Part shown: positions 32,335 to 46,911 of the stretch, piece after piece | How positions within the stretch are numbered: the first letter of the stretch is position 1 | Layout of the letters: every line of letters begins with the position of its first letter | Assembly: GCA_016783745.1 (NCBI GenBank) | Contig: JADHVZ010000005.1 | Coordinates: 1,178-65,177, forward strand | Direction of reading: 5' to 3' | DNA length: 64,000 bases | Origin: Candidatus Omnitrophota bacterium | Lineage (GTDB): Bacteria > Omnitrophota > Gorgyraeia > JAHIPI01 | The notes under the pieces: generated by a model | What the model saw: the letters and a program-made list of their open reading frames with translations, nothing else | Told to the model about the DNA's origin: nothing | The model's database searches: none | Program-made: the position numbers and the translations under genes

Positions 32335-32802
32335 TTACTTAGGCAACAGCTCTTCAAACAGCAATTTCAGCTCTTCGCGCCTCTTCGTCAGTATATCACT
32401 GAGCGGAGTGTTCATGGCGCACTTGCCCGGTTGAATACCCAGCAAGTATACCTCAGCCTTTGTCTCCGCCTTCAGAAAATCGAAAAATAATGCCAGGGAC
32501 GCGTTATGCGTAGATAAGCCGTATAAGGGAATATCCTTCTTCCTCAGCAACTTCATGTCCCCTATATTAGCGCCAAGATCAGCGGCGTCTACCATAAGTA
32601 CCGTGTCGGGCTTAGAGTTTCTGATCGCCTTAATGTGATTTTCAGGCGTAGGCCCTGCGTTCAACACCTCAGCTGAGGTCTTACCCTTCAGATCATCAAT
32701 AAGCCCGGGACCAAAGCCATCATCCCCCATCATTGTATTGCCGACTCCGACAATAGTGACCCTTCCCCTTAATATATCCTGTAATTCCATCCTAATATCC
32801 AT
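32335..32802 (-). CDS. hycI: hydrogenase maturation endopeptidase (HycI/HyaD family)
   Basis: TIVGVGNTMMGDDGFGPGLIDDL is the signature of the hydrogenase maturation protease family. Confidence 0.75.
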   Translation of the reverse strand: MDIRMELQDILRGRVTIVGVGNTMMGDDGFGPGLIDDLKGKTSAEVLNAGPTPENHIKAIRNSKPDTVLMVDAADLGANIGDMKLLRKKDIPLYGLSTHNASLALFFDFLKAETKAEVYLLGIQPGKCAMNTPLSDILTKRREELKLLFEELLPK

Positions 32803-32864
32803 AATAAATCAGGGACAGGCACCGATTGAATGGCACCTGTCCCTCTATTGTACCTTCTTCTCCC

Positions 32865-33488
32865 CTATTTTTCAAGGGTGGTTTTTCTTCGGCACGAAGC
32901 GCAGAGTATCTTTATCCTGTCAGACCTGCCAAGCTCTTTCGCGGCCTCGACCAGGTCTTCGGTCACCACACCCAACATCTTTAAATCCGCAAGATAAACT
33001 GTGGGGCTTGAATAAGCGAGAGTATCCAGCTTCCTCGCTATCCATCGCAAGTGAGAATACGTACTGATTATATCCGAACAGGATTCGCAAAGAGCCAACT
33101 CATTTTCCGACGAATCGCTTACCGCGTGCCTGTCGCTGCGGTCAAGATAAGCGCTTTCAAATTTGGTGGTATGGCTGATCCCGGGCGGATCCTCGTCCTT
33201 CGTAGAACACCAGAGAGTACAATTGCCGCAGAAATTACACATATCATAATTGATGACCATCTTGCGTTCAGGAGGATCCTGGCCAATATCATCCTTAACC
33301 TCAATAGCTCCGGACGGGCAGACAAACTTACATGCTGTACAGCCTATGCAGTTCTCATCGCTGAATTCCACCATGCCCCTGAATCTCTTATGCGGTATAT
33401 GCGGCTTAAAGGGATACATGTTTGTATATGGGCCCTTTATGACCGCTTTTATAGCTTCTTTTAGTTCTCTTAGCTTTGGTTTTTTCAT
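32865..33488 (-). CDS. NuoI-like 2x[4Fe-4S] ferredoxin subunit with Cys-containing C-terminal extension
   Basis: CIGCTACKFVCP and CNFCGNCTLWC. Extra CESC ... CASC pair in the C-terminal ~70 aa. Confidence 0.6.
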   Translation of the reverse strand: MKKPKLRELKEAIKAVIKGPYTNMYPFKPHIPHKRFRGMVEFSDENCIGCTACKFVCPSGAIEVKDDIGQDPPERKMVINYDMCNFCGNCTLWCSTKDEDPPGISHTTKFESAYLDRSDRHAVSDSSENELALCESCSDIISTYSHLRWIARKLDTLAYSSPTVYLADLKMLGVVTEDLVEAAKELGRSDRIKILCASCRRKTTLEK

Positions 33489-33492
33489 CTTT

Positions 33493-33527
33493 AACCTACT
33501 ACCTACAACCTACTACCTACAACCTAA
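33493..33527. repeat. 2.5 tandem copies of the 14-mer AACCTACTACCTAC in the leader/RBS region of the ferredoxin gene
   Basis: Direct read of the sequence. Confidence 0.8.
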
Positions 33528-33862
33528 TTCCCGTCTTCTTCGTATTTATCTATTACGCTGGATTCGCAAAGCTTAACACCTGACTTATGCGCGGCCCTGG
33601 CTAAGGCGTGCGCTGCTACAGGCGAAGTAAGCAATAAAAAAATTATACACAATATAGCTTTTATTCCCGCCGCCGTAAAACCGACTATGAGTAACATGCC
33701 AAAAAGAATACTGCAAGTCCCCAGCGTGATACATTTTGTCGCGGCCTGAAGCCTGTTATAAACATCCGGCAGTCTCAACAGCCCCAGGCAGCCAAAGACA
33801 TCAAAGGCCAGGCCTATGCTTATAAATATAAATCCGATTATGTGAATCACATTAATCATCAA
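33524..33862 (-). CDS. mrpG: Mrp antiporter subunit G-like
   Basis: 112 aa, 3 TM. Position is last in an MrpA-G-ordered block. Confidence 0.55.
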   Translation of the reverse strand: MMINVIHIIGFIFISIGLAFDVFGCLGLLRLPDVYNRLQAATKCITLGTCSILFGMLLIVGFTAAGIKAILCIIFLLLTSPVAAHALARAAHKSGVKLCESSVIDKYEEDGN

Positions 33863-34223
33863 AGTCTTTCCCCTCCAGATACTTTGCCAAAGCCAGTGTA
33901 CTTATAAAACTTTGCAATGCCCATGCTATACCTATATCGATATACCACTGCCTGCCCGTAGAAATACTTAAAACAGCGCAAAAGCCTATGACAAGTATGC
34001 CGAACATGTCTAGCGATACGATTCTGTCGGCCGGCGTAGGCCCCTTTACTATCCTAAAGAGGCATAAGACCGCGCACAAGATGAGCACAAACAGGGCCCT
34101 TTTAACAAAATTGAGATACACCAGCCCCGGGAAGATGTAGATATCCGGCGTAAAAAATAAGATTACGATAAATAAAGCCGCCAGTATGATCAGGCCTATA
34201 ATATAGCTAAGTGTCTTATTCAT
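33852..34223 (-). CDS. mrpF: Mrp antiporter subunit F-like
   Basis: 123 aa, 3 TM. Position in the Mrp block. Confidence 0.5.
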   Translation of the reverse strand: MNKTLSYIIGLIILAALFIVILFFTPDIYIFPGLVYLNFVKRALFVLILCAVLCLFRIVKGPTPADRIVSLDMFGILVIGFCAVLSISTGRQWYIDIGIAWALQSFISTLALAKYLEGKDFDD

Positions 34224-34714
34224 TCAAAAATCCTTGTCAATATCCGCTCAAACCGATAGGCTATCCTCTCGGTTGCCCCTTTTACATCCTTATCCTTGAC
34301 ATCTATCCAATGGACGTATATATAACCTTTTTCCCGGTCAATATCTACGCTTAAGGTCCCGGGCGTAAGTGTTATCGAATTGGCAAGAAATGTCAGGCCT
34401 GTATCAGATTTGAGCGATGTCTTGACCTTCACTATTCCGGGTTTTATCGGAAGACTCGGATGAGCTACCCTGTAGGCAACATCGATATTCGCCTTAAGCA
34501 TCTCCCAGATGAAAATCGGAATATAATAGAGGAACCAGAGATACCTCTCGACGTGTTTAAATAGATGCGGCCTTTGCACAAACATATCACCAGTCAGATA
34601 TGCTACTAACGCCGCCACAAAAACACCCACAACAAGATGCTGCCAATCCGGTATCCAGTTAAGCAGCGCCCATACGACAAACGCCAGAACAAAAAGAATC
34701 ATCCTGCTTTTCAT
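34220..34714 (-). CDS. mrpE: Mrp antiporter subunit E-like
   Basis: 164 aa, 2 N-terminal TM helices plus a soluble domain. Position in the Mrp block. Confidence 0.5.
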   Translation of the reverse strand: MKSRMILFVLAFVVWALLNWIPDWQHLVVGVFVAALVAYLTGDMFVQRPHLFKHVERYLWFLYYIPIFIWEMLKANIDVAYRVAHPSLPIKPGIVKVKTSLKSDTGLTFLANSITLTPGTLSVDIDREKGYIYVHWIDVKDKDVKGATERIAYRFERILTRIFE

Positions 34715-36243
34715 AATCCTAGGCCCCCGAAGACCGTTGCCGCATAATCCTTGCCCGCCATCAACGCGTCTGTAGCCGCCTTAAGAAAATTCTGGGAAAA
34801 GCGCGGCGCTATAAGTAAACCGCCAAAGATACATATGATCGCAAGGATAATAACCGGGACCTTCATAAAAACCGGGGGTTCCTTTATATCATCCCATTTT
34901 TTAGTCACTTTCCCGTCGCTTGCGGTTAAAGCGCCGGAAGGTGATCCGAAGAAGACATTCTTTTGTACGGTCGCGAAATACGCAAGCGTTACCACGCTGA
35001 CCAGGGCGGCCAGAAAGGCATACCCTATATATCCCGCCTGCACGGCCGCGAATATTATTATCAATTTACTGAAAAATCCGTTAAACGGCGGAACGCCGGC
35101 TATAGACATCGAAGCGATGAACGAGGTCCTGCCTGTAACAGGCATCTTTTCTTTCAGGCCTCCCATAAGCCGCATATCCCGCGTGCCTGTCGCATATTCC
35201 AGCGCGCCGGAGTTAAGAAACAGTAGTGACTTAAATACCGAATGGTTGAATAGATGAAAAAGCGCGCCGAGGATAGCCAGAGGCGTACCTATAGCCAAGC
35301 CCAATATGATGTAACCTATCTGGCTTATAGAGCTATAAGCCAGCAGGCGTTTAAAGTCCCACTGCCCACTCGCCAATAGCGCCCCTACGACCATGGATAA
35401 GGCGCCGAATATTAAAAGCACTTCCGTGAATTTAGCGCCCATTCCGAATACGTTATAAAAGATCCTTGCTATTGTGTAAATGCCGAGGCTCTTTATGAGT
35501 ACACCCGAAAGCATAGCGGAAATCGGCGCCGGTGCCGACGGGTGCGCGTCCGGCAGCCAGGCGTGAAACGGGACAATGGCCGCTTTCAATCCAAACCCCA
35601 TCAAAAAGAGGACGCCGGTAAACAGCGTAATATTGCCCGCTCCTTTTTGCGTTAAAACAGCGGCCATGTCCGCCATATTGAGTGTAGACGTATAACTATA
35701 CATAAACACTATTCCGAGAAGCACAAAAAGCGAACCCACCGTGCTCATTATCAAATATTTGAAAGAAGCTTCAAGCTCTTCCTCTTCAGTTCCGAATGCC
35801 ACGAGGGCGTAACTTGCGACCGACGCGATTTCCATGAATACAAAAAGGTTGAACATGTCGCCTGTTACGATGACCCCGTTCATACCCGCAAGCATCAAAA
35901 GGAAAAGCGTGTAAAACGTCCATTTTGAGGTGAACTTCTCCATATAGTTAACCGAGTAGACCGTTACCAGAAAGGCTACAAGGTTGACGGTCACGAGCAT
36001 AAAACTCGTAAATCCGTCCATTACCATTGTTATGCCTATGGGTGGCACCCAGGCACCGACTTTATATACTAAGACGCCGCATTTACTCACAAAGGATATC
36101 GAAAGAAGAGAAGCGATCAGCAGGCACGCTGTTGAGAGATTGCCCAACATGTCCGGCACCCCTTTTACCTTCTTCCCGATAAGGGAAGTCAGGAACGCGC
36201 CTGCGAGCGGTATTATCACGAATATAGGGATTATATTATGCAT
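34711..36243 (-). CDS. mrpD: MrpD/NuoN-like proton-translocating antiporter subunit
   Basis: 510 aa, about 14 TM. Conserved WLPDAHPSAPAPISAMLSGVLIK motif of the NuoL/M/N-MrpA/D family. Confidence 0.75.
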   Translation of the reverse strand: MHNIIPIFVIIPLAGAFLTSLIGKKVKGVPDMLGNLSTACLLIASLLSISFVSKCGVLVYKVGAWVPPIGITMVMDGFTSFMLVTVNLVAFLVTVYSVNYMEKFTSKWTFYTLFLLMLAGMNGVIVTGDMFNLFVFMEIASVASYALVAFGTEEEELEASFKYLIMSTVGSLFVLLGIVFMYSYTSTLNMADMAAVLTQKGAGNITLFTGVLFLMGFGLKAAIVPFHAWLPDAHPSAPAPISAMLSGVLIKSLGIYTIARIFYNVFGMGAKFTEVLLIFGALSMVVGALLASGQWDFKRLLAYSSISQIGYIILGLAIGTPLAILGALFHLFNHSVFKSLLFLNSGALEYATGTRDMRLMGGLKEKMPVTGRTSFIASMSIAGVPPFNGFFSKLIIIFAAVQAGYIGYAFLAALVSVVTLAYFATVQKNVFFGSPSGALTASDGKVTKKWDDIKEPPVFMKVPVIILAIICIFGGLLIAPRFSQNFLKAATDALMAGKDYAATVFGGLGL

Positions 36244-36244
36244 T

Positions 36245-36583
36245 CTATCCGTGCAACTTTCTTATTTTTGTAATATCGAACGTCCCGTATTTATCGTAAA
36301 TCCTGATAGCTATAGCGACCATCATGGCCGTGACCGCCAATCCGATAACGATCGCGGTAAGGACCAGGGCCTGAGGAAGCGGATCCACCATATTGAATAT
36401 GTTTTCACTCGGCGTGAATATAGGCGAACGGCCTTCGGCGCGGTAACCCACAAGCGCAAAAAACAGATGGACGGCATACTCAGCGATTATGATACCGATA
36501 ATGATCTTGATGAGATTCCTCTTCCTTAATATACAAAAGATGCCGATCGAGAAAAGGACCAGGCATAAAAAATAGAGAAGCAT
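36245..36583 (-). CDS. mrpC: MrpC/NuoK-like subunit
   Basis: 112 aa, 3 TM. NuoK-like. Confidence 0.55.
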   Translation of the reverse strand: MLLYFLCLVLFSIGIFCILRKRNLIKIIIGIIIAEYAVHLFFALVGYRAEGRSPIFTPSENIFNMVDPLPQALVLTAIVIGLAVTAMMVAIAIRIYDKYGTFDITKIRKLHG

Positions 36584-36586: not shown

Positions 36587-37069
36587 CTAATTTCCTTTCT
36601 TACCGTCCACTGTAAACTTCAGCATTACCAGTATGACAAATATACTGAATAATCCGGCGCCCACTTTTAAACTGATCGCTATGTTGCAAAGCGGGATTAT
36701 TCCGGCGCTGAATAACTTAAAAGGCTCGCCTTTATCAGCAAAGAAGTTCAAGAAGAAAGACCCGCCCGTGAAACCGATGACCGCTATTAATAAGAAAAGC
36801 AAGGCGCCTAAACTTTCAAAAAAAGACGCCGCCCGCATAGACAGCTTCTTCAATGCCACATCTTTGCCGAACGCCAGCATTATATGTATAAACGAAAGCG
36901 CCACAATAACTCCGCCGGCAAAACCGCCGCCGGGCGAGACGTGGCCATGAGACAGTATATATATACCGTATAGCAGGATCAGGCCGACCGTGAGGCGTGT
37001 TATGGTCTTTACGATAATGGTCATGCCTTTATTAGGATCCGGGACAGCGGCTTCTTTTTTATTATTCAT
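36587..37069 (-). CDS. mrpB: MrpB (MnhB-domain) subunit
   Basis: 160 aa, 4 TM. Position in the Mrp block. Confidence 0.5.
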   Translation of the reverse strand: MNNKKEAAVPDPNKGMTIIVKTITRLTVGLILLYGIYILSHGHVSPGGGFAGGVIVALSFIHIMLAFGKDVALKKLSMRAASFFESLGALLFLLIAVIGFTGGSFFLNFFADKGEPFKLFSAGIIPLCNIAISLKVGAGLFSIFVILVMLKFTVDGKKGN

Positions 37070-37604
37070 CTTCCTCTACTTCCTCCCCCACCTTCTTGCG
37101 GCCGACTCTCCTCATAATAGCGATAACGCCTATTACCGCCGTAAAAAGTATCGTTGCCTCACCCAGCGTATCATATGCCCTGAAGTCCAATATGACAGCC
37201 GCTACCAGATTAGACGCTCCCGTTTTTGACAATCCCGTTTCAAGGTAGATATTAGCGACCTTCATGATAGGCTGCCCGAAAACAGGAAGATCCTTTAAGC
37301 AGTAATATCCGATCCCTAAAAAAGTAACCGTGAATACGGCTACTACGAGTGTATTAAAAAACCACCTGCCGGAGGTAGAAAACGGCAGGTCTTTTTTGAG
37401 CGTCGCCCTTATTAATATTATCAAGCATAATATTTCGACGACCAGCTGCGTTATCGCGAGATCGGGCGCCTTCAATACTAAAAACGCTATGGAGAGAGCC
37501 AGGCCGACGGCGCCCACAGCTATAACAGCCGAAATAAGGTCTTGCATCTGAACGGCCGCTATTGCGCCTATGATCATGATTATCAAAAGAATATACAGGA
37601 TCAT
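37062..37604 (-). CDS. Mrp-module membrane subunit (MrpB N-terminal / DUF4040-like); start re-set to the ATG overlapping the mrpA stop (ATGA)
   Basis: Track ORF starts at 37655 inside mrpA. The internal ATG at 37604 overlaps the mrpA TGA, a classic translational coupling, giving MILYILLIIMIIG... Confidence 0.45.
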   Translation of the reverse strand: MILYILLIIMIIGAIAAVQMQDLISAVIAVGAVGLALSIAFLVLKAPDLAITQLVVEILCLIILIRATLKKDLPFSTSGRWFFNTLVVAVFTVTFLGIGYYCLKDLPVFGQPIMKVANIYLETGLSKTGASNLVAAVILDFRAYDTLGEATILFTAVIGVIAIMRRVGRKKVGEEVEEDE

Positions 37605-40800: not shown

Positions 40801-40809
40801 CTTTGTGGC

Positions 40810-41283
40810 TCATCGGCTCGACTCCTTCTGAGAATTCAAACTAAACTCTTTTCGCATCGGGTATTTATCCTTCGGCCAATCATCAGGCAGGAGAAGCGGC
40901 TTCATGTCAGGATGGCCCTTAAATTCGACCCCGAAAAGCTCATGCATCTCCCTCTCTATCCATCCCACGGCATTCGCTACCGGCACCAGAGACTCGACCG
41001 CGCAATCATCCTTCGGCGCGTATATCCTCAATGTGATGATCAGTCCGAGCCTATCCACATTAAAGTGATACATGATCTCTATATTTTCCGGATGGTCCAC
41101 CGCGGTCGCGGTATTAAACCTCGCCTCAAGGTCTTTGAACACATAACTCGCGAATTCGACTATATCTTTTCTGTCAAGGTCTATATATACCCGCTTGGAT
41201 GACTTCTCCTGAAAGCGTTTTATCTTGCCGCCGAATTTTTTCTTAATACTCGCTATAACCGCGCTTCTATCCATTTTGATCAC
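40810..41283 (-). CDS. NuoC-like (30-kDa) hydrogenase subunit
   Basis: 157 aa. Fold and position match NuoC/HycE-N/EchD. Located between the small- and large-subunit genes. Confidence 0.65.
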   Translation of the reverse strand: MIKMDRSAVIASIKKKFGGKIKRFQEKSSKRVYIDLDRKDIVEFASYVFKDLEARFNTATAVDHPENIEIMYHFNVDRLGLIITLRIYAPKDDCAVESLVPVANAVGWIEREMHELFGVEFKGHPDMKPLLLPDDWPKDKYPMRKEFSLNSQKESSR

Positions 41284-41705
41284 TTGCCTTTCGCCTTGAC
41301 CAGCTTTACGATGCCGTCTATTATCGCCTCAGGCTTCGGCGGACAGCCCGGTATATAGGCGTCGACCGGGAGGACCTTATCCAGCGGCTCCGCCTCATCT
41401 ACCATATAGGTATTGCTGAACATGCCCCGCCCTGCCGTGCAGGTCCCCACCGCGATTACGAAGCCGGGTTTCGGCATCTGGTCATACATCTTTTTTACTA
41501 TCGGCTTGCATTGCTTATTTAGAATCCCCGTGACTAAAAGTACGTCGGCGTGCCTTATAGACCCGACCAGCAATATCCCGAAACGCTCCACATCGTGCCT
41601 TGGCGTCAATAGATCCAGTATTTCTATGTCACAGTTGTTGCAGCTTGCCGTAGACAGATGGAACACCCAGAGTGACTTTGTTAATGCCTTGATCTTGACT
41701 GACAT
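41280..41705 (-). CDS. [NiFe] hydrogenase group 4 small subunit (NuoB-like)
   Basis: CNNC...GTCTAG...IPGCPP cysteines of the proximal [4Fe-4S] cluster. Confidence 0.8.
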   Translation of the reverse strand: MSVKIKALTKSLWVFHLSTASCNNCDIEILDLLTPRHDVERFGILLVGSIRHADVLLVTGILNKQCKPIVKKMYDQMPKPGFVIAVGTCTAGRGMFSNTYMVDEAEPLDKVLPVDAYIPGCPPKPEAIIDGIVKLVKAKGK

Positions 41706-41717: not shown

Positions 41718-42653
41718 CTAAAGTCCAAATAACGCTAGCACTACTCCGATCACTGCCAGAACCGTGACGCGGCCCCAGAAGAACCTGAGCGCCTGATCGA
41801 TCCTCAGGCGGGGATTCGTATTTCTTATCAATACTATCACTACCAGCAAAGCTACATATTTCAATATGCCCCAGAGAAGCGATAGCCCGCTTACGCTGAT
41901 GCCGCCCATGAAGGCTACTATCAAGAACATGGGCATTGTAAACAATAACATGGCTTTTGTCAATTTAAAGACGGCCAGAGGCCCGCCTGAGTATTCGATT
42001 ATAGGCCCGCCCATGAGCTCTGTCTCCGCCTCAGAAACATCAAAAGGAACAAGCCCTAATTTAGCCTGCATACATAATATTGCTACTATCAGCGCTATCG
42101 AACCAGAAAAACTTCCCACTACTATACCGTTGGCAGCCTGATAATTCAATATTCCGCCTATTGTCAGTATCCCGCCCGATTTTATTATAGGTACGGCAAG
42201 GGCTAATATAAAAGGAAGCTCATACGATAATACCAATTTCATCTCACGCGAAGCGCCGAGACTCGCGTAGGAATTGTTTGACGCGAAACCGCCCAATATC
42301 AAACTTAATGCCGGAAGGGTCAGAAGATATAAGACGACTATAATATCGCCTATAAAACCGCCTGCCGGATCAAGATTCGATAGCCATAATATCATCGAGA
42401 CCAATGTTACTCCTGCCAGGCCGATAAGCGGAGCGGTAAAAAAGAGCAATTGTGAAGAACCGGCCGGCATAAGCGTCTCTTTGCCGAGCAGCTTGACTAT
42501 ATCGGCTAACGGTTGATACCACGGCGGGCCTACCCTGTATTGTACGCGCGCAGTGACCTTCCTGTCGATCCAGCTCGCCAGCAGCCCTATCGCGGCTGTG
42601 AACAAAAAACCCGGAAATATTAAAAATTGTAATACAGAGACGGCCATCTTCAT
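41718..42653 (-). CDS. NuoH/HycD/EchB-like membrane subunit
   Basis: 311 aa, 8 TM. NuoH-like. Confidence 0.7.
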   Translation of the reverse strand: MKMAVSVLQFLIFPGFLFTAAIGLLASWIDRKVTARVQYRVGPPWYQPLADIVKLLGKETLMPAGSSQLLFFTAPLIGLAGVTLVSMILWLSNLDPAGGFIGDIIVVLYLLTLPALSLILGGFASNNSYASLGASREMKLVLSYELPFILALAVPIIKSGGILTIGGILNYQAANGIVVGSFSGSIALIVAILCMQAKLGLVPFDVSEAETELMGGPIIEYSGGPLAVFKLTKAMLLFTMPMFLIVAFMGGISVSGLSLLWGILKYVALLVVIVLIRNTNPRLRIDQALRFFWGRVTVLAVIGVVLALFGL

Positions 42654-43141
42654 TTAGACTTAACTCCGTTCCTCTCCCAACGCTCCGCCTTTACCAGTAT
42701 GTTATCACTAACGGCGTATATCTTCTTAGCTTCGTCTTCTTTAAAATCACCGTACATTAATACGCCTTCCGCGGAGCCCTTTATGCACGCGGGCTCTTCT
42801 CCGTCCATAAGTTTATCCAGGCATAGGTCGCAACGAGGCATAAGATACGTCATCATCTCTGTGTAGATCACTCCGAAAGGACAGGCGTGGCTGCAGGATT
42901 TACAGCTTGTGCACCTCATATTGTATCTCTCTAATATCTTATCATCCCTTTTCTCAAGGGCCTCGTTCGGACAGGAAGTGACACAGGCCTCAAGTTCGCA
43001 TTTTCTGCAGACAATAGCGTATGTCGCCAACTCCAGCAAGGACCTGACGCCTTTATTGTCCGAATGATAAAAATAACTGCAGCCGAGATCCTTATCCTTA
43101 TACTCAGTATATAGATCCAAGTCGATCAGTAATTTTTTCAT
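42650..43141 (-). CDS. HycB/HydN-like multi-[4Fe-4S] electron-transfer protein
   Basis: CRKCELEACVTSCP, CTSCKSCSHACP and CDLCLDK...PACIKG cysteine clusters. Confidence 0.6.
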   Translation of the reverse strand: MKKLLIDLDLYTEYKDKDLGCSYFYHSDNKGVRSLLELATYAIVCRKCELEACVTSCPNEALEKRDDKILERYNMRCTSCKSCSHACPFGVIYTEMMTYLMPRCDLCLDKLMDGEEPACIKGSAEGVLMYGDFKEDEAKKIYAVSDNILVKAERWERNGVKSK

Positions 43142-43142
43142 C

Positions 43143-43964
43143 TTATTCCCAGATCGTATGATATTCTTTTATCTTATCGTAAGTAAAGACCGGGCCGTCC
43201 TTGCAGGCATAGTACGGGCCGATCCTGCAGTGCCCGCATTTTCCTATTCCGCATGACATATTCTTTTCCATCGATAGAAACAGGTCTTTATCTTTATACC
43301 CCAGTTCCACCAGCTTAAAAGTGGCGAATTTCATCATGATCGGAGGCCCGCACACTATAGCCGCGCTGTTACTTATGTCTACTCCGATATCTTTTCTTAA
43401 GAGCGTTGTGATGAGACCCACATTGCCTTTCCAGTCTTCACCGCTTTTGTCTACGGTTATTTCTATATCCAGATCCTTATTTCCGGCCCACTCCTTCAGC
43501 TGATCTTTATAAACAAGGTCCTCGGGAGAACGCGCTCCGTACTTTACCATGATCCTTTTATATTTACCCGCCTCGTCAAGTAAGGCCAGGATAAGGCTTC
43601 TAAGAGGAGCAAGCCCTACACCGCCGCCCACTATTAAGACCTCTTTACCTTCGAAATCCTTCAGAGGATATCCCGTCCCGTAGGGCCCTCTTACGCCTAC
43701 GACCGCGCCTTTCCCTATTTCATGCAGCCGCGATGTCACTCGCCCCACGCTCATTATCGTTATTTCCATGCTATCTTCGATCTTCGGATTAGATGAGGGC
43801 GTAAATGGCGCCTCTCCCACGCCGGGCACAGTCAATTCTACAAATTGCCCCGTCTTAAAAGAGACGGGCTTTTCCGGCTTGACCGCGAATGTCTTGATAG
43901 TAGGCGTCTCTTCGATGATATCTGTTATTTCAGCTTTTACAGGACAATACGGATTTTCTACCAT
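43143..43964 (-). CDS. FAD/NAD(P)H-binding oxidoreductase subunit with C-terminal [2Fe-2S] (HydG/AsrB/PyrK-like)
   Basis: FNR-like fold (GQFVELTVPGVGEAPFT, VGGGVGLAPL) plus C-terminal CGIGKCGHCRIGPYYAC. Confidence 0.65.
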   Translation of the reverse strand: MVENPYCPVKAEITDIIEETPTIKTFAVKPEKPVSFKTGQFVELTVPGVGEAPFTPSSNPKIEDSMEITIMSVGRVTSRLHEIGKGAVVGVRGPYGTGYPLKDFEGKEVLIVGGGVGLAPLRSLILALLDEAGKYKRIMVKYGARSPEDLVYKDQLKEWAGNKDLDIEITVDKSGEDWKGNVGLITTLLRKDIGVDISNSAAIVCGPPIMMKFATFKLVELGYKDKDLFLSMEKNMSCGIGKCGHCRIGPYYACKDGPVFTYDKIKEYHTIWE

Positions 43965-45019
43965 TATGCCTTAGCTTTCTTCTTTTCCGCTACCAGATCC
44001 TTCAAGACCCTTCGTATATCGATCTTAGCGGGACAACCGGAAATACATCTGCCGCAACCGGTACACGCGTACAGCCCGTTGACCTCGGGAAAATAGTCGA
44101 ACTTCTTTTCGAACCGGTTTCTCAGCCTCTCCCAGAGATGCTGTCTGGGATTTGCGTTGCCTGCGACACGGGCAAACCGCTTATACATACATGAATCCCA
44201 GATCTTATAACGCGTTTCTCCGCCAGCCTTTTTCTGAATATCCGCGAGATAAAAACAATGACAGGTAGGGCAAGCCACGTTACAACCGCCGCATTCCACG
44301 CAATTCTCTGCCTCTCGCTCCCAGATCTCCGATTCCAGGCTTTTCTTAATAACATCTTTATATTCCGTCTGGCGCGGTATTTCAGACTTTTTAATGCCTT
44401 CCTCTACCTGAGCGCCGGATATACTTCTTATGTGGTCTCTTTCTTCTATATGTTTTTCGCCGGAGTCAGCAAGGATATCACTATTTTCATTCAGCAGTTT
44501 TTTCCCCTTCCAGGTAACGGACTCCAGTAAATATCCGTCACGTAATTCAGAGATCAGAACATCATGGTTCTTTTGAGGAAAATGCTCATGGCCTAAAGCG
44601 TGGCAGAAGCACGTATCTATGGCATGAGTGCAATCCGCGGCGATGATCAGGTTCTGCTCGCGTTTACTGACATAAAATGGGTCTTTAAAGTCCCCTTCCG
44701 AAAATACGCTATCTAAAATATTTAAGCCGGCGAGATCGCAGTTCTTCACGCCCAATACACACAATGGCTTTCCTCCGGCTTTAGGATCAGCCGGCCTGCC
44801 TAAGCCGTCAATCACCCGTTCGCGGGCGAAAAAGAAAAAATTCTTAAGGGGTTCGAACGGCCTCACACCGCCTATCAGGGGATCTTTAAGGCCATCCGAA
44901 TATTTGACAATATGAGGACTGGCGCCTTTACCCTTACGAAGGTAATAAAGGGAGTATTCTTTAGAAATGCCGTAAGCGAACATTTCCAGGTTTTCTCTTT
45001 TTAGAAACACTTGCTCCAC
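43964..45019 (-). CDS. Fe-S subunit related to sulfhydrogenase beta / anaerobic sulfite reductase A (HydB/AsrA-like)
   Basis: 351 aa with CVECGGCNVACPTC and CTGCGRCISGCP motifs. Translationally coupled to the HydG-like gene. Confidence 0.55.
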   Translation of the reverse strand: MEQVFLKRENLEMFAYGISKEYSLYYLRKGKGASPHIVKYSDGLKDPLIGGVRPFEPLKNFFFFARERVIDGLGRPADPKAGGKPLCVLGVKNCDLAGLNILDSVFSEGDFKDPFYVSKREQNLIIAADCTHAIDTCFCHALGHEHFPQKNHDVLISELRDGYLLESVTWKGKKLLNENSDILADSGEKHIEERDHIRSISGAQVEEGIKKSEIPRQTEYKDVIKKSLESEIWEREAENCVECGGCNVACPTCHCFYLADIQKKAGGETRYKIWDSCMYKRFARVAGNANPRQHLWERLRNRFEKKFDYFPEVNGLYACTGCGRCISGCPAKIDIRRVLKDLVAEKKKAKA

Positions 45020-45025
45020 TTTGAT

Positions 45026-45661
45026 TCAGCCTTTCGCGGAAGTCAGGATAAATGAGAAATTCTCAAGCTCGTTTGACAGATCTATGTTCCTTACCGTTAC
45101 TCCTTCGTCCACTTTCAAGATCACAGGCGAGAAATTCAGGATGCATATTATTCCATACCGGGTGACCTCCTCCGCTACATCTTGAGCGCTGTCAACCGGA
45201 ACGGTTATTATAGCGATTTTGATCGACCTGTCCTTCTCGATGTCATTTATCTGTCTTACATCTTTTACAGTGACTTCTCCATAACACTTGCCGATCTTCT
45301 TCTGATCGATGTCAAAGGCTTCCTTTATTATAAAACCCTGGTTTTTAAAACCAGGGTATCTGAGTAATGCCGAACCTATATTCCCGGCACCGATCAAAAC
45401 TATATGCCATATATTGTCTTTTCCAAGCAGATCCCTGAGAATATTCTTTAACTTGAGGATCTCGTAGCCCGATCCTGATGTCCCGAACTGGCCGAAGTAA
45501 GAAAGATCTTTTCTCACCTGCGCGTCAGTAAGTCCGGTCAACTCACCTAGTTCCACGGAAGAGACCTTGTCTCCTCCCTCGTCTTCCAGGCGGCTTATCT
45601 CTCTTAGATATAGCGACAATCTTGACGCCACGCTTTTCGGTATTTTCTTTTTCTCTTGCAT
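45026..45661 (-). CDS. rex: redox-sensing transcriptional repressor Rex (start re-set to the internal Met)
   Basis: MQEKKKIPKSVASRLSLYLREI... is the winged-helix N-terminus. IVLIGAGNIGSALL is the Rossmann NADH site. Track ORF (to 45817) carries a 52-aa non-Rex N-terminal extension. Confidence 0.75.
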   Translation of the reverse strand: MQEKKKIPKSVASRLSLYLREISRLEDEGGDKVSSVELGELTGLTDAQVRKDLSYFGQFGTSGSGYEILKLKNILRDLLGKDNIWHIVLIGAGNIGSALLRYPGFKNQGFIIKEAFDIDQKKIGKCYGEVTVKDVRQINDIEKDRSIKIAIITVPVDSAQDVAEEVTRYGIICILNFSPVILKVDEGVTVRNIDLSNELENFSFILTSAKG

Positions 45662-45669
45662 CGAGAGAT

Positions 45670-45687
45670 TTGTGATTTTTTTCACGA
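45670..45687. promoter_or_regulatory. candidate Rex operator TTGTGA-N6-TCACGA
   Basis: ttgtgatttttttcacga is 9-26 nt upstream of the rex start. One mismatch to the 18-bp Rex consensus TTGTGAAnnnnTTCACAA. Confidence 0.45.
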
Positions 45688-45771
45688 AGTAGGTTAAAAA
45701 AAAATTGTTTTGGTTATATCTCTTTCTTTGAGATGATTCTATCAAAAAATATGACTTTGTCAAGAAAAAAA

Positions 45772-46179
45772 TTAAAACTTTACCAGCATGGCGCGCGGCG
45801 GACAGGTCTTCACGCACAGTTCACAAGCTATGCACTTATTAGAATCGAAGTTCACCTTCATGGTGTCTTTTTCCAGGCTAAGCGCTCCGGTCGGGCATAT
45901 TGTTATACAGGCTGTGCAATGCGTACATTTATTGTCATCGCGCGAGATATCCTTACTCAAAGCCTGTATTGTAACGCCTAATTCGTTAAGGTATTTCACG
46001 CCGTTATCATAGTCTTCCTTCTTGCCGCTAAGCTCCAGGACCAAAAGCCCTTCTTCTTCAGGAGTAACTCTTGCCTGAAGGATGTTAAACATAAGATTAA
46101 AATCTTTCACTAATTTAAAAACCACAGGCTTATCAAGTAGATTATGCGGAAACGTAAGGACTATTCTTTTGGATATCAT
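45772..46179 (-). CDS. NIL-domain protein fused to 2x[4Fe-4S] ferredoxin
   Basis: N-terminal ~75 aa NIL-like domain. C-terminal CTHCTACITICP and CIACELCVKTCP. Confidence 0.55.
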   Translation of the reverse strand: MISKRIVLTFPHNLLDKPVVFKLVKDFNLMFNILQARVTPEEEGLLVLELSGKKEDYDNGVKYLNELGVTIQALSKDISRDDNKCTHCTACITICPTGALSLEKDTMKVNFDSNKCIACELCVKTCPPRAMLVKF

Positions 46180-46194
46180 GTATACCTCCTGAGA

Positions 46195-46911
46195 TTACAG
46201 TAACTCAACCTCTCCCCAACTCGCCAATTTGCTTCCGATTATGACCAGCGCGCCTGTCACACCTTCTATCGATCTTGCGTAATCTATAGCTGCTTGCAGG
46301 TCATCGGCGTTTTTAACCAGGTTTCCGGCCTGAGTCGCCACACAATCGGCAAGCACGGCATCACGCGCTATTATGGTGGCCGCATCCGCCTTTCCGAAAC
46401 TCTTAGAATGCCCCACTGTTCCGCTGGAGGTGCAAATGCCAAGCGGCACCCCGGATGGAGCTATCTTAAGATTTATTTTGCCTGAAAGCGGGGAATCGCC
46501 GGCGTATATACTAAGCCTGCGCTCGGTATCAGATTTAATAAATATATCTCCCCCGTTTTCTATTAAGACCTGCGAACATTGATCCAGAAGATCCATTCCG
46601 GTATATTGGGCTATTGCGCCGGCCACCCCAGCCATAGGGCCGACACCGGCAATAGCGGATTTATCTATCATATCCCTGACTATTTCCGGAGCGCTGCCAT
46701 CGGCTTCTATCGGCTTCAGAGAATCCTTAAAAAATCTATTCGCCTCGATATAGTCAAGTATCTGCTTCCGATACTCATAAACAGCCTTTTCCGCTTCATT
46801 TTTTAGCGGTTTATCGCAGAGCATCGAAAGATCGGTCTCGAAAACCTTGACCTCGAAACTTATCAGATCTTCGCTTTTTACCCAGTTTCTGTAGAATCTA
46901 TGTTGATGCAT
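46195..46911 (-). CDS. UPF0280/ApbE-like family protein
   Basis: 238 aa with a GVGPMAGVAGAIA motif. Family assignment is from memory only. Confidence 0.35.
   Translation of the reverse strand: MHQHRFYRNWVKSEDLISFEVKVFETDLSMLCDKPLKNEAEKAVYEYRKQILDYIEANRFFKDSLKPIEADGSAPEIVRDMIDKSAIAGVGPMAGVAGAIAQYTGMDLLDQCSQVLIENGGDIFIKSDTERRLSIYAGDSPLSGKINLKIAPSGVPLGICTSSGTVGHSKSFGKADAATIIARDAVLADCVATQAGNLVKNADDLQAAIDYARSIEGVTGALVIIGSKLASWGEVELL

What the first reader, a model, noticed from the sequence alone, without database searches (positions are those of the whole stretch)
32335..46911. Composite operon: Rex, HydB/HydG-like NAD(P)H module, group-4 [NiFe] hydrogenase and complete MrpA-G module in one transcription unit
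Gene order on the - strand is: UPF0280-like, NIL-ferredoxin, rex, HydB/AsrA-like Fe-S, HydG/AsrB-like FAD/[2Fe-2S], HycB-like, NuoH-like, NuoB-like, NuoC-like, NuoD-like [NiFe] large subunit, MrpA, B(N), B(C), C, D, E, F, G, NuoI-like ferredoxin, HycI protease. The junctions I resolved (mrpA/mrpB-N ATGA overlap; HydB-like/HydG-like stop-start at 43964; 6 nt between rex and the HydB-like gene) are tight. Canonical Mbh/Ech enzymes take electrons from ferredoxin. A pyridine-nucleotide-binding HydBG-type module encoded in-operon suggests an NAD(P)H-linked, ion-translocating hydrogenase, a respiratory-type NAD(P)H:H+ oxidoreductase. The in-operon Rex implies direct NADH/NAD+ control. The gene order differs from Pyrococcus Mbh.
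Basis: partly seen in the sequence, partly recalled or inferred. Interest (0 to 1): 0.7.

Follow-up and report, generated by a model that had tools for sequence, protein, structure and literature searches.

The report
Rex-controlled Hun membrane hydrogenase operon
This is an Omnitrophota copy of the already described "Hun" operon, a membrane-bound nickel-iron hydrogenase joined to a sodium/proton antiporter module and an NAD(P)H-type electron module; here it sits behind a promoter with a binding site for the NADH sensor Rex, and its real electron partner has never been measured.

Summary
The gene content and order are real. Profile searches confirm all 20 genes on the minus strand. The HydB/HydG-like pair are full-length homologues of the P. 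furiosus sulfhydrogenase I beta/gamma (NADPH) subunits, and the large subunit is a true [NiFe] protein closest to MbhL.

It is not new. rex is followed by exactly the 16 genes of the "Hun" supercomplex (Glass 2021; "Mbh-Mrp-oxidoreductase" in Méheust 2020; Matheus Carnevali 2019), including the CGIC/CYCC signature. That complex was already reported in Omnitrophica.

In the 80 species-representative loci kept as best matches to this HydB, every locus whose contig continues past it has HydG-HycB-NuoH-B-C-D next, across more than 10 phyla by record title.

The unit starts at rex, not at UPF0280. A near-consensus promoter and the window's only Rex-box-like site lie between the NIL-ferredoxin gene and rex. 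Rex boxes are strongly enriched upstream of hun operons, mainly in Omnitrophota-like lineages. UPF0280 and NIL-ferredoxin are the known homocysteine-synthesis pair.

NAD(P)H coupling is the most parsimonious reading but is unproven and was already suggested. Energetics argue against NADH-driven ion pumping. I favour a reversible, gradient-coupled NAD(P)H:H+ valve. Interest is moderate to low.

The parts
45736..45763 (-). Sigma-70-like promoter TTGACA-16 nt-(TG)TAGAAT in the NIL-ferredoxin/rex gap
   Evidence: Best promoter match between 31.8 and 51 kb, 11 of 12 with an extended -10. The -35 and -10 are conserved in L004 and L005 while the flanks diverge.
45670..45687 (-). Rex operator TTCGTGAAAAAAATCACAA (2 mismatches to TTGTGAANNNNTTCACAA), ending 8 nt before the rex ATG
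   Evidence: It is the only site with 3 or fewer mismatches in the 64-kb window. It is conserved in L004 and L005. Rex boxes are enriched upstream of rex/hunA in related loci: 25 of 32 sites with 2 or fewer mismatches lie in 2.1% of the sequence.
45026..45661 (-). rex, the redox-sensing (NADH/NAD+) transcriptional repressor
   Evidence: NCBIfam NF003995 at 242 bits (cut-off 126) and NF003993 at 219 bits (cut-off 217). Pfam Put_DNA-bind_N plus CoA_binding Rossmann domain. Start codon fixed by sequence reading.
43964..45019 (-). hunA: HydB/ShyB/AsrA-like poly-[4Fe-4S] subunit
   Evidence: PF17179 at 7e-31. Matches 9nez_B, sulfhydrogenase I beta, at 1.7e-40. NCBIfam scores: ShyB 173, HydB 157, AsrA 118 bits, all below cut-offs.
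43143..43964 (-). hunB: HydG/AsrB-like FAD / NAD(P) / [2Fe-2S] subunit
   Evidence: FAD_binding_6, NAD_binding_1 and DHODB_Fe-S_bind. Matches 9nez_C, sulfhydrogenase I gamma, at 2.8e-54 over residues 3-265. Motifs are kept in at least 95% of 78 homologues.
42650..43141 (-). hunC: HycB/CooF/DmsB-type multi-cluster connector ferredoxin
   Evidence: Fer4_11. Solved-structure matches are to DmsB-type, FdnH, NrfC, HycB3/4 and FHL subunit 2. Its start lies 1 nt after the hunB stop.
41718..42653 (-). hunD: NuoH/MbhM-like membrane subunit
   Evidence: PF00146 at 2.8e-67.
41280..41705 (-). hunE: NuoB/MbhJ-like small subunit
   Evidence: PF01058 at 9.9e-30.
40810..41283 (-). hunF: NuoC/MbhK-like subunit
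   Evidence: PF00329 at 2.3e-27.
40638..40809 (-). 172-nt structured insertion between hunF and hunG, flanked by the direct repeat ATGAGCCACAAAG
   Evidence: Sequence. RNA fold of -76 kcal/mol, z = -7.4. No Rfam match. L005 has an insertion at the same site with the same flanking repeat, and the first hairpin changes on both arms by my reading of the two sequences. Other relatives have the ancestral ATGA overlap.
39405..40637 (-). hunG: [NiFe] hydrogenase large subunit (L1 RICGICSTSH, L2 DPCYCCTER, C-terminal extension)
   Evidence: PF00346 and PF00374. Best solved relative is 6cfw_L MbhL at 1.8e-88, then FHL HycE at 4.2e-79. CGIC and CYCC are present in all 120 listed homologues.
37601..39412 (-). 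hunH: MrpA/NuoL-like antiporter subunit
   Evidence: Proton_antipo_M at 2.6e-54. NCBIfam hits are to Mrp A/D and NuoL/M families, all below their cut-offs.
37062..37604 (-). hunI: MbhD + MbhE domains (C-terminal MrpA / N-terminal MrpB part)
   Evidence: PF13244 and PF20501. ATGA overlap with hunH.
36587..37069 (-). hunJ: MnhB
   Evidence: PF04039 at 2e-25.
36245..36583 (-). hunK: MnhC/NuoK-like
   Evidence: PF00420 at 1.3e-26.
34711..36243 (-). hunL: MrpD/NuoM-N-like antiporter subunit
   Evidence: Proton_antipo_M at 6.3e-69.
34220..34714 (-). hunM: MnhE
   Evidence: PF01899 at 1.4e-48.
33852..34223 (-). hunN: MrpF
   Evidence: PF04066 at 8.2e-18.
33524..33862 (-). hunO: MnhG
   Evidence: PF03334 at 5.7e-26.
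32865..33488 (-). hunP: NuoI/HycF-like 2x[4Fe-4S] subunit with a Cys-rich C-terminal extension
   Evidence: Fer4_7. Best solved relative is FHL subunit 6, 7z0s_F, at 1.3e-12.
32811..32844 (-). Strong hairpin (13-bp stem, 8 G-C pairs) filling the hunP/hycI gap
   Evidence: Terminator-like scan. It ends 10 nt before the hycI ATG.
32335..32802 (-). hycI-type large-subunit maturation endopeptidase
   Evidence: PF01750 at 9.3e-13. It follows hunP in relatives as well.
45772..46911 (-). Neighbours, probably not part of the enzyme: UPF0280/COG2122 ApbE-like gene (46911-46195) and NIL/ferredoxin gene (46179-45772)
   Evidence: NF003323 at 285 bits (cut-off 271), NIL plus Fer4. They lie upstream of the Rex-controlled promoter. 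The pair is present only in Omnitrophota-like loci. COG2122 and NIL/ferredoxin act with DUF39 in homocysteine synthesis (PMC5764234).
47089..50560 (-). hypF (C-terminal half only), hypC, hypD, hypE maturation genes
   Evidence: TIGR00143 matched at profile positions 382-740 only. HypC, HypD and AIRS/AIRS_C. Same arrangement in L001 and L003.

Best explanation
The locus is a Hun-type, Mrp-linked membrane-bound [NiFe] hydrogenase operon of a Candidatus Omnitrophota bacterium. HydDB calls this type 'group 4g' according to the literature. Its layout is rex, then hunA-P (16 structural genes), then hycI.

Shown:
- Transcription most likely starts at a near-consensus promoter between the NIL-ferredoxin gene and rex.
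- A Rex operator lies between that promoter and the rex start codon.
- All junctions from rex to hunP are at most 35 nt or overlap, apart from one 172-nt inserted structured element.
- HunB and HunA are full-length homologues of the NADPH-binding gamma subunit and the Fe-S beta subunit of P. furiosus sulfhydrogenase I.
- In the relatives sampled, HunAB always precede this hydrogenase and have co-diverged with it.

Inferred mechanism:
- HunB (FAD, [2Fe-2S]) exchanges hydride with NAD(P)(H).
- Electrons then run through the [4Fe-4S] clusters of HunA, the HycB-like connector HunC and the HycF-like HunP to HunE and the Ni-Fe site of HunG.
- The layout is that of formate hydrogenlyase, with HunAB in the place of formate dehydrogenase.
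- The NuoH-like subunit plus a full Mrp set couple this near-equilibrium reaction (NAD(P)H + H+ <-> NAD(P)+ + H2) to Na+/H+ movement.
- Rex releases the promoter when NADH/NAD+ is high, so the physiological role is most likely a reductant relief valve that turns surplus NAD(P)H into H2.
- This reaction would be pulled by low ambient H2 and, when needed, pushed by the ion gradient. It would not be an NADH-driven ion pump. The enzyme should be reversible. Extra input from ferredoxin is not excluded.
For: - Domain content of all 20 genes.
- 9nez_B and 9nez_C are the best solved relatives of HunA and HunB, and the gamma alignment keeps GRVT, RGPYG, GGxGxAPLRS, CGPP and CGIGKCGHC...C.
- These motifs are kept in at least 95% of 78 HunB sequences.
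- NCBIfam names the closest families 'NAD(P)-dependent hydrogenase/sulfhydrogenase beta/gamma' and AsrA/AsrB.
- The large subunit is closest to MbhL and HycE and has all four Ni-Fe cysteines. hyp genes and hycI are adjacent.
- HunC belongs to the HycB/DmsB connector family, and HunP is closest to HycF.
- In every one of the 80 species-representative loci kept as best HunA matches whose contig continues, hunA is followed by hunB-hunC-nuoH-B-C-D (79/76/72/67/64/61 loci reach each successive gene). No gene is inserted between hunB and hunC.
- Pairwise-identity matrices of HunA and HunB correlate with that of the large subunit (r = 0.86 and 0.85) as well as NuoH does (0.86).
- Promoter and operator.
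- Twelve of 14 Rex sites with 1 or fewer mismatches, and 25 of 32 with 2 or fewer, lie in the roughly 330 nt upstream of rex/hunA, which is 2.1% of 1.2 Mb. This includes loci with no adjacent rex.
- rex is adjacent in about 20 of 80 loci.
- In Ace Lake Omnitrophota each genome has a single hydrogenase, of group 3b, 3d, A3 or 4g (PMC8542988). The first three groups are NAD(P)-linked types by established knowledge.
Against: - No biochemical data exist for any Hun enzyme. Glass et al. proposed ferredoxin as the donor.
- NADH to H2 costs about +18 kJ/mol under standard conditions (E0' -320 against -414 mV, textbook values). It is only about -5 to -10 kJ/mol at 1-10 Pa H2, too little to pump ions. 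The elaborate Mrp arm is therefore easier to explain with a low-potential donor such as ferredoxin.
- Rex also controls a ferredoxin-dependent Ech-type hydrogenase in C. bescii.
- Neither a rex gene nor a Rex box was found upstream in the Desulfobacterota, Nitrospirota, Fermentibacteria, Elusimicrobia, Sumerlaeota and Hydrogenedentota loci.
- The related loci are not independent, and intergenic DNA is AT-rich, which inflates the enrichment statistic.
- NAD versus NADP specificity could not be read from the sequence.
Confidence: 0.6

Rival explanations
1. Ferredoxin-only Hun, the published model. Reduced ferredoxin donates to HunABC. Electrons reduce protons at HunG, and the exergonic reaction drives Na+/H+ export through the Mrp arm, as in Pyrococcus Mbh. 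The NAD-binding domain of HunB would be vestigial or regulatory.
For: - Glass et al. 2021 propose this model.
- HydDB describes group 4g as putatively ferredoxin-coupled.
- The large subunit is closest to ferredoxin-dependent MbhL.
- Energetics fit an ion pump.
- Rex can control ferredoxin-dependent hydrogenases.
Against: - Mbh needs no HydBG-like module.
- HunB keeps every FAD and NAD(P) motif in 78 sequences over more than 10 phyla, which argues for a used nucleotide site.
- Its closest characterised relatives (sulfhydrogenase I gamma, AsrB, PyrK, NfnA) are pyridine-nucleotide enzymes by NCBIfam name or established knowledge.
- The cited analogy rests on AsrAB taking electrons from ferredoxin. 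From my own knowledge, the Salmonella enzyme is described as NADH-linked.
Confidence: 0.17
2. Dual-input (confurcation-like) enzyme. Reduced ferredoxin and NAD(P)H both feed the same Fe-S chain. The exergonic ferredoxin branch pays for the NAD(P)H branch and for ion export, in effect Rnf plus Mbh merged into one complex.
For: - A 2026 survey proposes bifurcation or confurcation among H2, NADPH and a third substrate for group 4b clusters that carry sulfhydrogenase beta/gamma homologues plus an Fdh-like protein (PMC13582414).
- Bird et al. write 'ferredoxin or NADH'.
- This model resolves the energetic objection.
- HunC and HunA offer several peripheral clusters.
Against: - No third branch protein is present here: no gene lies between hunB and hunC in 76 loci.
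- No bifurcating-flavin subunit of the NfnB or HydB(FMN) type is present.
- Nothing in the sequence identifies a ferredoxin docking site.
Confidence: 0.15
3. H2-uptake respiratory enzyme. H2 is oxidised at HunG and NAD(P)+ is reduced at HunB. The exergonic reaction exports ions and supplies NAD(P)H to an acetogenic (Wood-Ljungdahl) metabolism.
For: - P. furiosus sulfhydrogenase I works physiologically towards NADPH (established knowledge; 'reversible NADPH-oxidizing', Xiao 2025, cited).
- Many Omnitrophota with this hydrogenase are predicted acetogens (PMC10066038).
- H2 to NAD+ is exergonic.
Against: - The logic of Rex points the other way. De-repression at high NADH/NAD+ fits an NADH-consuming enzyme, not an NADH-producing one.
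- Group 4 enzymes characterised so far are mainly H2 evolvers.
Confidence: 0.06
4. HunAB is a sulfur-compound reductase output module, by analogy with the S0-reducing activity of sulfhydrogenase or with sulfite reductase. In this model the complex would be an H2- or ferredoxin-driven sulfur or sulfite reductase.
For: - Homology to AsrA and AsrB (118 and 230 bits).
- Bird et al. mention 'and/or reduce sulfur compounds'.
Against: - No AsrC or siroheme subunit was found among the Pfam-scanned ORFs of the window.
- Scores are below the Asr equivalog cut-offs, and HunA scores higher against ShyB/HydB.
- The Ni-Fe site, the hyp genes and hycI are intact, so the enzyme is a true hydrogenase.
Confidence: 0.02

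Closest known systems
Hun supercomplex (Glass et al. 2021, bioRxiv 10.1101/536078). Also described as the 'Mbh-Mrp-oxidoreductase type' (Méheust 2020) and as the 'enigmatic' group 4 hydrogenase with cooF/asrA/asrB (Matheus Carnevali 2019).
   Same: - The same 16 genes in the same order (AsrAB-like HunAB, HunC, NuoH, NuoB/C/D, eight Mrp-type genes, NuoI-like HunP).
- The same large-subunit CGIC/CYCC signature.
- The complex was already reported in Omnitrophica, Atribacteria, Elusimicrobia, Firmicutes and Kosmotoga.
   Different: - Here rex is the first gene, behind a Rex-boxed promoter. The word 'rex' does not occur in the Glass paper.
- A 172-nt structured element splits hunF from hunG.
- The published model names ferredoxin as the donor. 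I favour NAD(P)(H).
Pyrococcus furiosus Mbh (group 4d, PDB 6CFW)
   Same: - It is the closest solved large subunit (1.8e-88).
- It has NuoB/C/D/H/I-like core subunits and Mrp-derived membrane subunits, including MbhD/E domains.
   Different: From established knowledge:
- Mbh has 14 subunits, a single antiporter-like subunit and Mrp genes first in the operon.
- It takes ferredoxin directly at MbhN.
- It has no HydBG-like or HycB-like subunits.
E. coli formate hydrogenlyase (group 4a, PDB 7Z0S)
   Same: - The same modular logic: a soluble dehydrogenase feeds a HycB-type connector, then HycF, HycG and HycE.
- HunP is closest to HycF, and HunC hits HycB.
- The large subunit matches HycE at 4.2e-79.
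- HycI processing is present.
   Different: - The input module is a flavin/Fe-S pair, not a molybdopterin formate dehydrogenase.
- The membrane arm is a full Mrp set.
P. furiosus soluble sulfhydrogenase I, beta/gamma subunits (group 3b, PDB 9NEZ), and Salmonella AsrAB
   Same: - HunA and HunB are homologous over their full length.
- The FAD, NAD(P) and [2Fe-2S] motifs and the Cys motifs are conserved.
   Different: - In Hun they are attached to a membrane-bound group 4 enzyme, not to a group 3 alpha/delta dimer or a siroheme AsrC.
- Scores fall well below the equivalog cut-offs, so they form a separate clade.
Respiratory complex I
   Same: - An NADH-type input, an Fe-S chain, a NuoB/C/D/H/I core and antiporter-like subunits.
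   Different: - The nucleotide module is of the FNR/PyrK type, not NuoEFG.
- The acceptor is H+ at a Ni-Fe site, not quinone, so the free-energy span is close to zero.

Membership tests
Hun supercomplex (Glass et al. 2021) | 16 co-oriented genes hunA-P in the published order | tested here: met
   Exactly 16 genes lie between rex and hycI, with the expected domains and order (compared).
Hun supercomplex (Glass et al. 2021) | Large subunit with L1 CGIC and L2 CYCC | tested here: met
   RICGICSTSH and DPCYCCTER in the window protein. Both motifs occur in all 120 listed homologues.
Hun supercomplex (Glass et al. 2021) | AsrAB/HydBG-like pair directly upstream of the hydrogenase core | tested here: met
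   The arrangement is conserved in all sufficiently long loci.
Hun supercomplex (Glass et al. 2021) | HydDB class 'group 4g' | not testable with these tools
   HydDB is not available here. The literature assigns Omnitrophota and Atribacteria enzymes of this type to 4g. A 2026 tree finds 4g polyphyletic.
True [NiFe] hydrogenase (as opposed to Ehr/Mbx-type relatives) | Four Ni-Fe cysteines, a C-terminal extension, a maturation protease and hyp genes | tested here: met
   Both CxxC motifs and a roughly 45-residue tail. HycI. hypF(C-terminal half), hypC, hypD and hypE. hypA and hypB were not seen in the window.
Pyrococcus-type Mbh (group 4d) | 14-gene mbhA-N order, one antiporter-like subunit, no extra soluble module | tested here: not met
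   The window has two antiporter-like subunits (603 and 510 aa), a different gene order and the extra HunA/B/C. The Mbh features themselves come from established knowledge.
Group 3b sulfhydrogenase beta/gamma (HydB/HydG, ShyB/ShyC) | Score above the NCBIfam equivalog cut-offs and partnership with group 3 alpha/delta subunits | tested here: not met
   Scores of 173 and 157 bits against cut-offs of 690 and 750, and 188 and 183 bits against 650 and 600. No group 3 subunits are in the locus.
Anaerobic sulfite reductase AsrAB | Score above the TIGR02910/TIGR02911 cut-offs and an adjacent AsrC | tested here: not met
   117.7 bits against 323 and 229.6 bits against 288.6. No siroheme subunit was found among the Pfam-scanned ORFs of the window.
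FNR/PyrK-type NAD(P)-binding flavoprotein (HunB) | FAD-binding motif, GGxGxxP and CGP nucleotide motifs, C-terminal 4-Cys [2Fe-2S] | tested here: met
   Present in the window protein and kept in at least 95% of 78 homologues. Actual binding of NAD(P)H is not testable here. NAD versus NADP specificity is inconclusive.
Rex regulon member | A Rex protein plus an operator matching TTGTGAANNNNTTCACAA in the promoter region | tested here: met
   Rex scores above the cut-offs. A 2-mismatch site lies between the promoter and the ATG. The site is conserved in L004 and L005. Boxes are enriched family-wide. Binding itself was not tested.
Homocysteine-synthesis pair COG2122 + NIL/ferredoxin (upstream neighbours) | A UPF0280/ApbE-like protein and a NIL + 2x[4Fe-4S] protein, acting with DUF39 | tested here: inconclusive
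   Both proteins are present. No DUF39 gene was found among the window ORFs scanned. The pathway is from PMC5764234. That UPF0280 equals COG2122 is from my own knowledge.

The most novel reading that the evidence does not exclude
Hun enzymes are Rex-gated, reversible NAD(P)H:H+ oxidoreductases whose Mrp arm uses or makes an ion gradient. This would be a membrane-coupled route for turning NADH into H2, alongside confurcating [FeFe] hydrogenases and Rnf plus Ech. It would be used by Omnitrophota, Atribacterota, Spirochaetota and other mostly uncultured anaerobes. It is testable in cultured carriers such as Desulfosarcina variabilis.
Probability: 0.4. Interest if true: 0.65.

Novelty: new member of a known kind. 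Interest (0 to 1): 0.35.

Why it matters
How fermenters and syntrophs dispose of NADH as H2 against an unfavourable potential is a central question of anaerobic energetics. The known answers are electron-confurcating [FeFe] hydrogenases, or Rnf combined with a ferredoxin-dependent hydrogenase.

A membrane hydrogenase wired directly to an NAD(P)H module, and able to borrow or store energy in an ion gradient, would be a third answer. It would be encoded in phyla that are prominent in anoxic sediments, groundwater and the deep subsurface.

That idea is already in the literature, so this window adds no new kind of system. What this analysis adds is comparative:
- The NAD(P)H-type pair is an obligatory, co-diverging part of this hydrogenase clade.
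- Its nucleotide motifs are under constraint.
- In Omnitrophota-like and a few other lineages the operon sits behind Rex operators.

These points sharpen an experiment that can be done in cultured carriers.

Tried and rejected
- Rfam search of the operon (E-value mode) and of the whole window (gathering scores) found nothing. The window has no tRNA genes.
- I looked for a terminator or promoter at the hunB/hunC junction.
- I looked for the molybdopterin/Fdh-like gene that some published variants carry between hunB and hunC. It is absent from the window and from all 76 loci; the largest gap is 519 nt.
- I tried to read NAD versus NADP specificity from the segment after the second strand of the nucleotide domain. 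It always holds a K or R followed by T/N/S, as in NADPH-linked sulfhydrogenase I gamma. This is not decisive.
- I considered the UPF0280 and NIL-ferredoxin genes as flavin-transfer or electron-carrier accessories of the complex. I rejected this in favour of the documented homocysteine-synthesis role, and because they lie upstream of the Rex promoter and are absent outside Omnitrophota-like loci. Their fixed place between hyp and hun remains unexplained.
- HydDB classification could not be run.
- A library search for the sulfhydrogenase I structure paper found nothing. It is cited only through.
- Searches for biochemical work on Hun or Kosmotoga returned only the Glass preprint.
- A relaxed Rex consensus (TTGT[G/T]AA...) added only two Spirochaetota sites with 1 mismatch. 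Atribacterota loci with an adjacent rex gene showed no box with 2 or fewer mismatches.
- No multi-subunit structure prediction is available here, so cluster-to-cluster distances could not be checked.

Full report
OBSERVATION

All ORFs of 180 aa or more that have a family match lie on the minus strand of the window.
- UPF0280 (NF003323, above its cut-off)
- NIL + 2x[4Fe-4S]
- Rex
- a HydB/AsrA-like Fe-S protein (PF17179)
- a HydG/AsrB-like protein with FAD_binding_6, NAD_binding_1 and the PyrK-type [2Fe-2S] domain
- a HycB-like ferredoxin
- NuoH-, NuoB- and NuoC-like subunits
- a NuoD-like large subunit with both Ni-Fe cysteine motifs (RICGICSTSH, DPCYCCTER)
- a complete split Mrp set (MrpA-like, MbhD/E, MnhB, MnhC, MrpD, MnhE, MrpF, MnhG)
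- a NuoI-like ferredoxin
- HycI

Four things need correcting or adding:
- rex starts at ATG 45661, not at the upstream GTG.
- There is a 110-nt gap before rex.
- There is a 172-nt gap between nuoC and the large-subunit gene.
- A strong hairpin lies before hycI.

In addition, hypF (C-terminal half only), hypC, hypD and hypE sit directly upstream.

ORGANISM

The large subunit and the HydB-like protein are each 100% identical to proteins of a 'Candidatus Omnitrophica bacterium' MAG. Their nearest relatives are overwhelmingly Omnitrophota.

TRANSCRIPTION UNIT AND REGULATION

From rex to the NuoI-like gene, every junction is an overlap or a gap of at most 35 nt, except the 172-nt insertion.

The best sigma-70-like promoter between 31.8 and 51 kb is TTGACA-16-TAGAAT with a TG extension, at 45763-45736, in the gap between the NIL-ferredoxin gene and rex. 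The only site in the 64-kb window within three mismatches of the Rex consensus TTGTGAANNNNTTCACAA (consensus from PMC6391272) is 45670-45687. It lies between that promoter and the rex ATG. The -35, the -10 and the box are all conserved in the two closest loci, L004 and L005, while the rest of the spacer has diverged.

The operon is therefore best read as P(Rex-box)-rex-hunA...hunP-(hairpin)-hycI. The UPF0280 and NIL-ferredoxin genes lie upstream of this promoter. No canonical terminator follows them, so read-through cannot be excluded.

These two genes are the COG2122 + NIL/ferredoxin pair that acts with DUF39 in homocysteine synthesis (PMC5764234). They accompany the operon only in Omnitrophota-like loci.

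RELATIVES

I scanned one genome per GTDB species with a HunA alignment. tblastn with the window's proteins gave these results:
- hunA is followed by hunB, hunC, nuoH, nuoB, nuoC and the large subunit wherever the contig continues. The numbers of loci reaching each successive gene are 79, 76, 72, 67, 64 and 61.
- The Mrp genes usually follow.
- In several Spirochaetota loci the Mrp genes are instead transcribed divergently upstream.

By record title, the carriers include Omnitrophota, Spirochaetota, Atribacterota, Desulfosarcina variabilis (a cultured strain), Desulfococcus, Elusimicrobia, Nitrospirota, Sumerlaeota, Hydrogenedentota, Fermentibacteria, Aegiribacteria and Tritonobacter. Several MAGs are labelled Planctomycetia or Clostridia, and those labels may be unreliable.

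Two large-subunit relatives looked up by exact protein show the same order, preceded by hypF-C-D-E, UPF0280 and NIL-ferredoxin, but without rex.

Pairwise-identity matrices of HunA and HunB correlate with that of the large subunit (r = 0.86 and 0.85) as strongly as NuoH does (0.86) across 58 loci. The pair has therefore travelled and diverged with the core enzyme.

rex is the adjacent upstream gene in about 20 of the 80 loci. Across 1.2 Mb of loci, 12 of 14 Rex sites with 1 or fewer mismatches, and 25 of 32 with 2 or fewer, fall in the roughly 330 nt upstream of rex/hunA. That region is 2.1% of the sequence (binomial p about 3e-36, inflated by relatedness and by AT-rich spacers). The sites include loci with no adjacent rex.

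The Rex link is concentrated in Omnitrophota-like lineages. It is also seen in Atribacterota (gene only), Tritonobacter, one 'Clostridia' MAG and two Spirochaetota. It was not seen in the Desulfobacterota, Nitrospirota, Fermentibacteria, Elusimicrobia, Sumerlaeota or Hydrogenedentota loci.

WHAT IS ALREADY KNOWN

- Glass et al. 2021 named this 16-subunit operon 'Hun'. They described HunAB as AsrAB-like. They noted the large subunit's CGIC/CYCC signature and its HydDB group 4g call. They listed Atribacteria, Firmicutes, Omnitrophica, Elusimicrobia, Bacteroidetes and Kosmotoga as carriers, and proposed ferredoxin as the donor. The window's protein and all 120 listed homologues carry CGIC and CYCC.
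- Matheus Carnevali et al. 2019 described an 'enigmatic' group 4 hydrogenase with Mrp, cooF, asrA and asrB. Its closest relatives were in Zixibacteria and Omnitrophica.
- Méheust et al. 2020 called it the 'Mbh-Mrp-oxidoreductase type' and stated that the function of the oxidoreductase is unknown.
- Bird et al. [quoted passage not shown]
- A 2026 survey notes homologues of sulfhydrogenase I gamma/beta, 'involved in NADPH oxidation', next to some group 4b clusters, and proposes bifurcation or confurcation.
- Two Omnitrophota studies list a 'group 4g, Mrp-linked' hydrogenase and assume ferredoxin.
- In the papers I could read, I found no biochemical characterisation and no mention of Rex in connection with this operon. 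'rex' has 0 occurrences, and one search returned nothing.

HOW IT MOST LIKELY WORKS

Shown:
- HunB aligns end to end with the NADPH-binding gamma subunit of P. furiosus sulfhydrogenase I (9nez_C, 2.8e-54) and keeps its flavin, nucleotide and [2Fe-2S] motifs.
- Those motifs are kept in at least 95% of 78 HunB sequences.
- HunA matches the beta subunit (9nez_B, 1.7e-40).
- HunC belongs to the HycB/DmsB connector family. HunP is closest to HycF of formate hydrogenlyase.
- The large subunit is closest to MbhL and HycE.

Inferred:
- The peripheral arm is built like formate hydrogenlyase, with HunAB in the place of formate dehydrogenase.
- The electron path is NAD(P)H, then FAD and [2Fe-2S] in HunB, then the clusters of HunA, HunC and HunP, then HunE and the Ni-Fe site.

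Energetics, from textbook potentials: NADH to H2 costs about +18 kJ/mol under standard conditions. It becomes slightly favourable (about -5 to -10 kJ/mol) only at 1-10 Pa H2. With NAD(P)H as sole donor the Mrp arm therefore cannot be a strong outward pump. It would instead let the ion gradient assist H2 formation, or conserve energy in the reverse direction.

Rex releases DNA at high NADH/NAD+. That fits an NADH-consuming, H2-evolving relief valve better than an H2-uptake enzyme.

A supporting point from the literature: each Ace Lake Omnitrophota genome carries a single hydrogenase, of group 3b, 3d, A3 or 4g. The first three groups are NAD(P)-linked types by established knowledge.

I put about 0.6 on NAD(P)(H) being a physiological partner in this way. 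The identification as a Hun-type operon is close to certain.

RIVALS

- Ferredoxin-only input is the published model. It fits the energetics of a pump, and Rex also controls the ferredoxin-dependent Ech of C. bescii. It leaves the conserved nucleotide site of HunB unexplained.
- Dual input of ferredoxin plus NAD(P)H would solve the energy problem. It cannot be excluded, but no third branch or bifurcating flavoprotein is encoded here.
- H2 uptake to NAD(P)+ is possible but runs against the logic of Rex.
- A sulfur- or sulfite-reducing output role is unlikely. No AsrC was found, the scores are below the Asr cut-offs, and the hydrogenase site is intact.

VERDICT

This window is an Omnitrophota member of the published Hun family.

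The points that may be new are regulatory and comparative: Rex operators upstream of hun operons, the obligatory linkage and co-divergence of HunAB with the core, and the constraint on the nucleotide motifs. They make the open question of the electron partner easier to test. Cultured carriers exist for that test.

SIDE OBSERVATIONS

- The 172-nt element between hunF and hunG is flanked by a 13-nt direct repeat. The repeat re-creates the ancestral ATGA stop/start overlap seen in relatives.
- The element folds far better than shuffles (z = -7.4).
- It occupies the same site in L005, with a diverged interior. By my reading of the two sequences, the first hairpin changes on both arms there. In L005 an ORF that starts at the left repeat copy runs through the whole insertion and ends on the hunG ATG.
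- The element shares hairpin modules with intergenic DNA of other Omnitrophota loci.

Noticed in passing
window 40638-40809 (-); L005 about 8212-8418: A 172-nt highly structured element (-76 kcal/mol, z = -7.4) is inserted between nuoC and the large-subunit gene. It is flanked by the direct repeat ATGAGCCACAAAG, which duplicates the ancestral ATGA stop/start overlap. L005 has an insertion at the same site with the same flanking repeat and a diverged interior, and its first hairpin changes on both arms by my reading of the sequences. In L005 an ORF from the left repeat copy runs through the insertion and ends on the real ATG. Similar hairpin modules occur in intergenic DNA of L020, L024, L025, L032, L034 and L066. 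There is no Rfam match. It looks like a small palindromic (REP/MITE-like) element of Omnitrophota tolerated inside an operon.
   Followed up: partly
window 32811-32844 (-): A 13-bp-stem hairpin (8 G-C pairs) fills the 62-nt gap between the NuoI-like gene and hycI and ends 10 nt before the hycI ATG. hycI has no visible ribosome-binding site. The hairpin could be an attenuating terminator or an mRNA 3' stabiliser that lowers protease expression.
   Followed up: no
window 45772-46911 (-); L001, L003-L005, L054, L058-L060, L065-L067, L069, L074, L075, L077: A UPF0280/COG2122 (ApbE-like) gene and a NIL/ferredoxin gene, known with DUF39 as the homocysteine-synthesis set, are fixed between the hyp genes and the hun operon in Omnitrophota-like genomes only. 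No DUF39 gene was found among the window ORFs scanned. Why this pair keeps this position is unexplained.
   Followed up: partly
window 49424-50560 (-); L001 739-1875; L003 1112-2203: HypF is only 363-378 aa long. In the window protein it matches positions 382-740 of the HypF model, and in L001 and L003 it carries only the HypF_C domains. The acylphosphatase, zinc-finger and YrdC parts are not encoded here. A pyruvoyl arginine decarboxylase gene lies directly upstream. This truncation is conserved in relatives.
   Followed up: partly
window 46912-47088 (-): The 177-nt gap after hypE holds a long imperfect palindrome built from CGGTTCTCGG/CCGAGAACCG-like units (-56.6 kcal/mol, z = -3.4). In relative L001 a hypA gene occupies this position, and the window has none here.
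   Followed up: partly
L012, L015, L017, L029, L032, L034, L041 (upstream of rex): Many rex-first loci carry two Rex-like boxes whose starts are exactly 21 nt apart (two helical turns). This suggests binding of two Rex dimers. The window has only one recognisable box.
   Followed up: no
L008, L021, L038, L039, L083 (Spirochaetota and unclassified); L035: These loci show variant operon layouts. In L008, L021, L038, L039 and L083 the Mrp genes are transcribed divergently upstream of hunA, and nuoI-hycI follow the large subunit directly. In L035 nuoI-hycI also follow the large subunit, but nuoH and the Mrp genes come after hycI on the same strand.
   Followed up: no
L018, L019, L063: A second, distant group-4-like gene set (NuoH, NuoI and HycI at 30-39% identity) lies just upstream of the hun operon in two Atribacterota loci and one Omnitrophota locus. 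This agrees with reports of flanking complexes in Atribacteria.
   Followed up: no
window 1240-3100: A low-GC stretch (0.33 against about 0.46) holds only short ORFs or ORFs without Pfam matches. A short tandem repeat translating as ASKQ repeats lies near 1241-1438. This may be foreign or decaying DNA.
   Followed up: no
window 1-64000: Every ORF with a family match is on the minus strand, and GC skew is negative throughout. This indicates a long co-oriented chromosomal stretch. No tRNA genes and no Rfam family were found in the 64 kb.
   Followed up: partly
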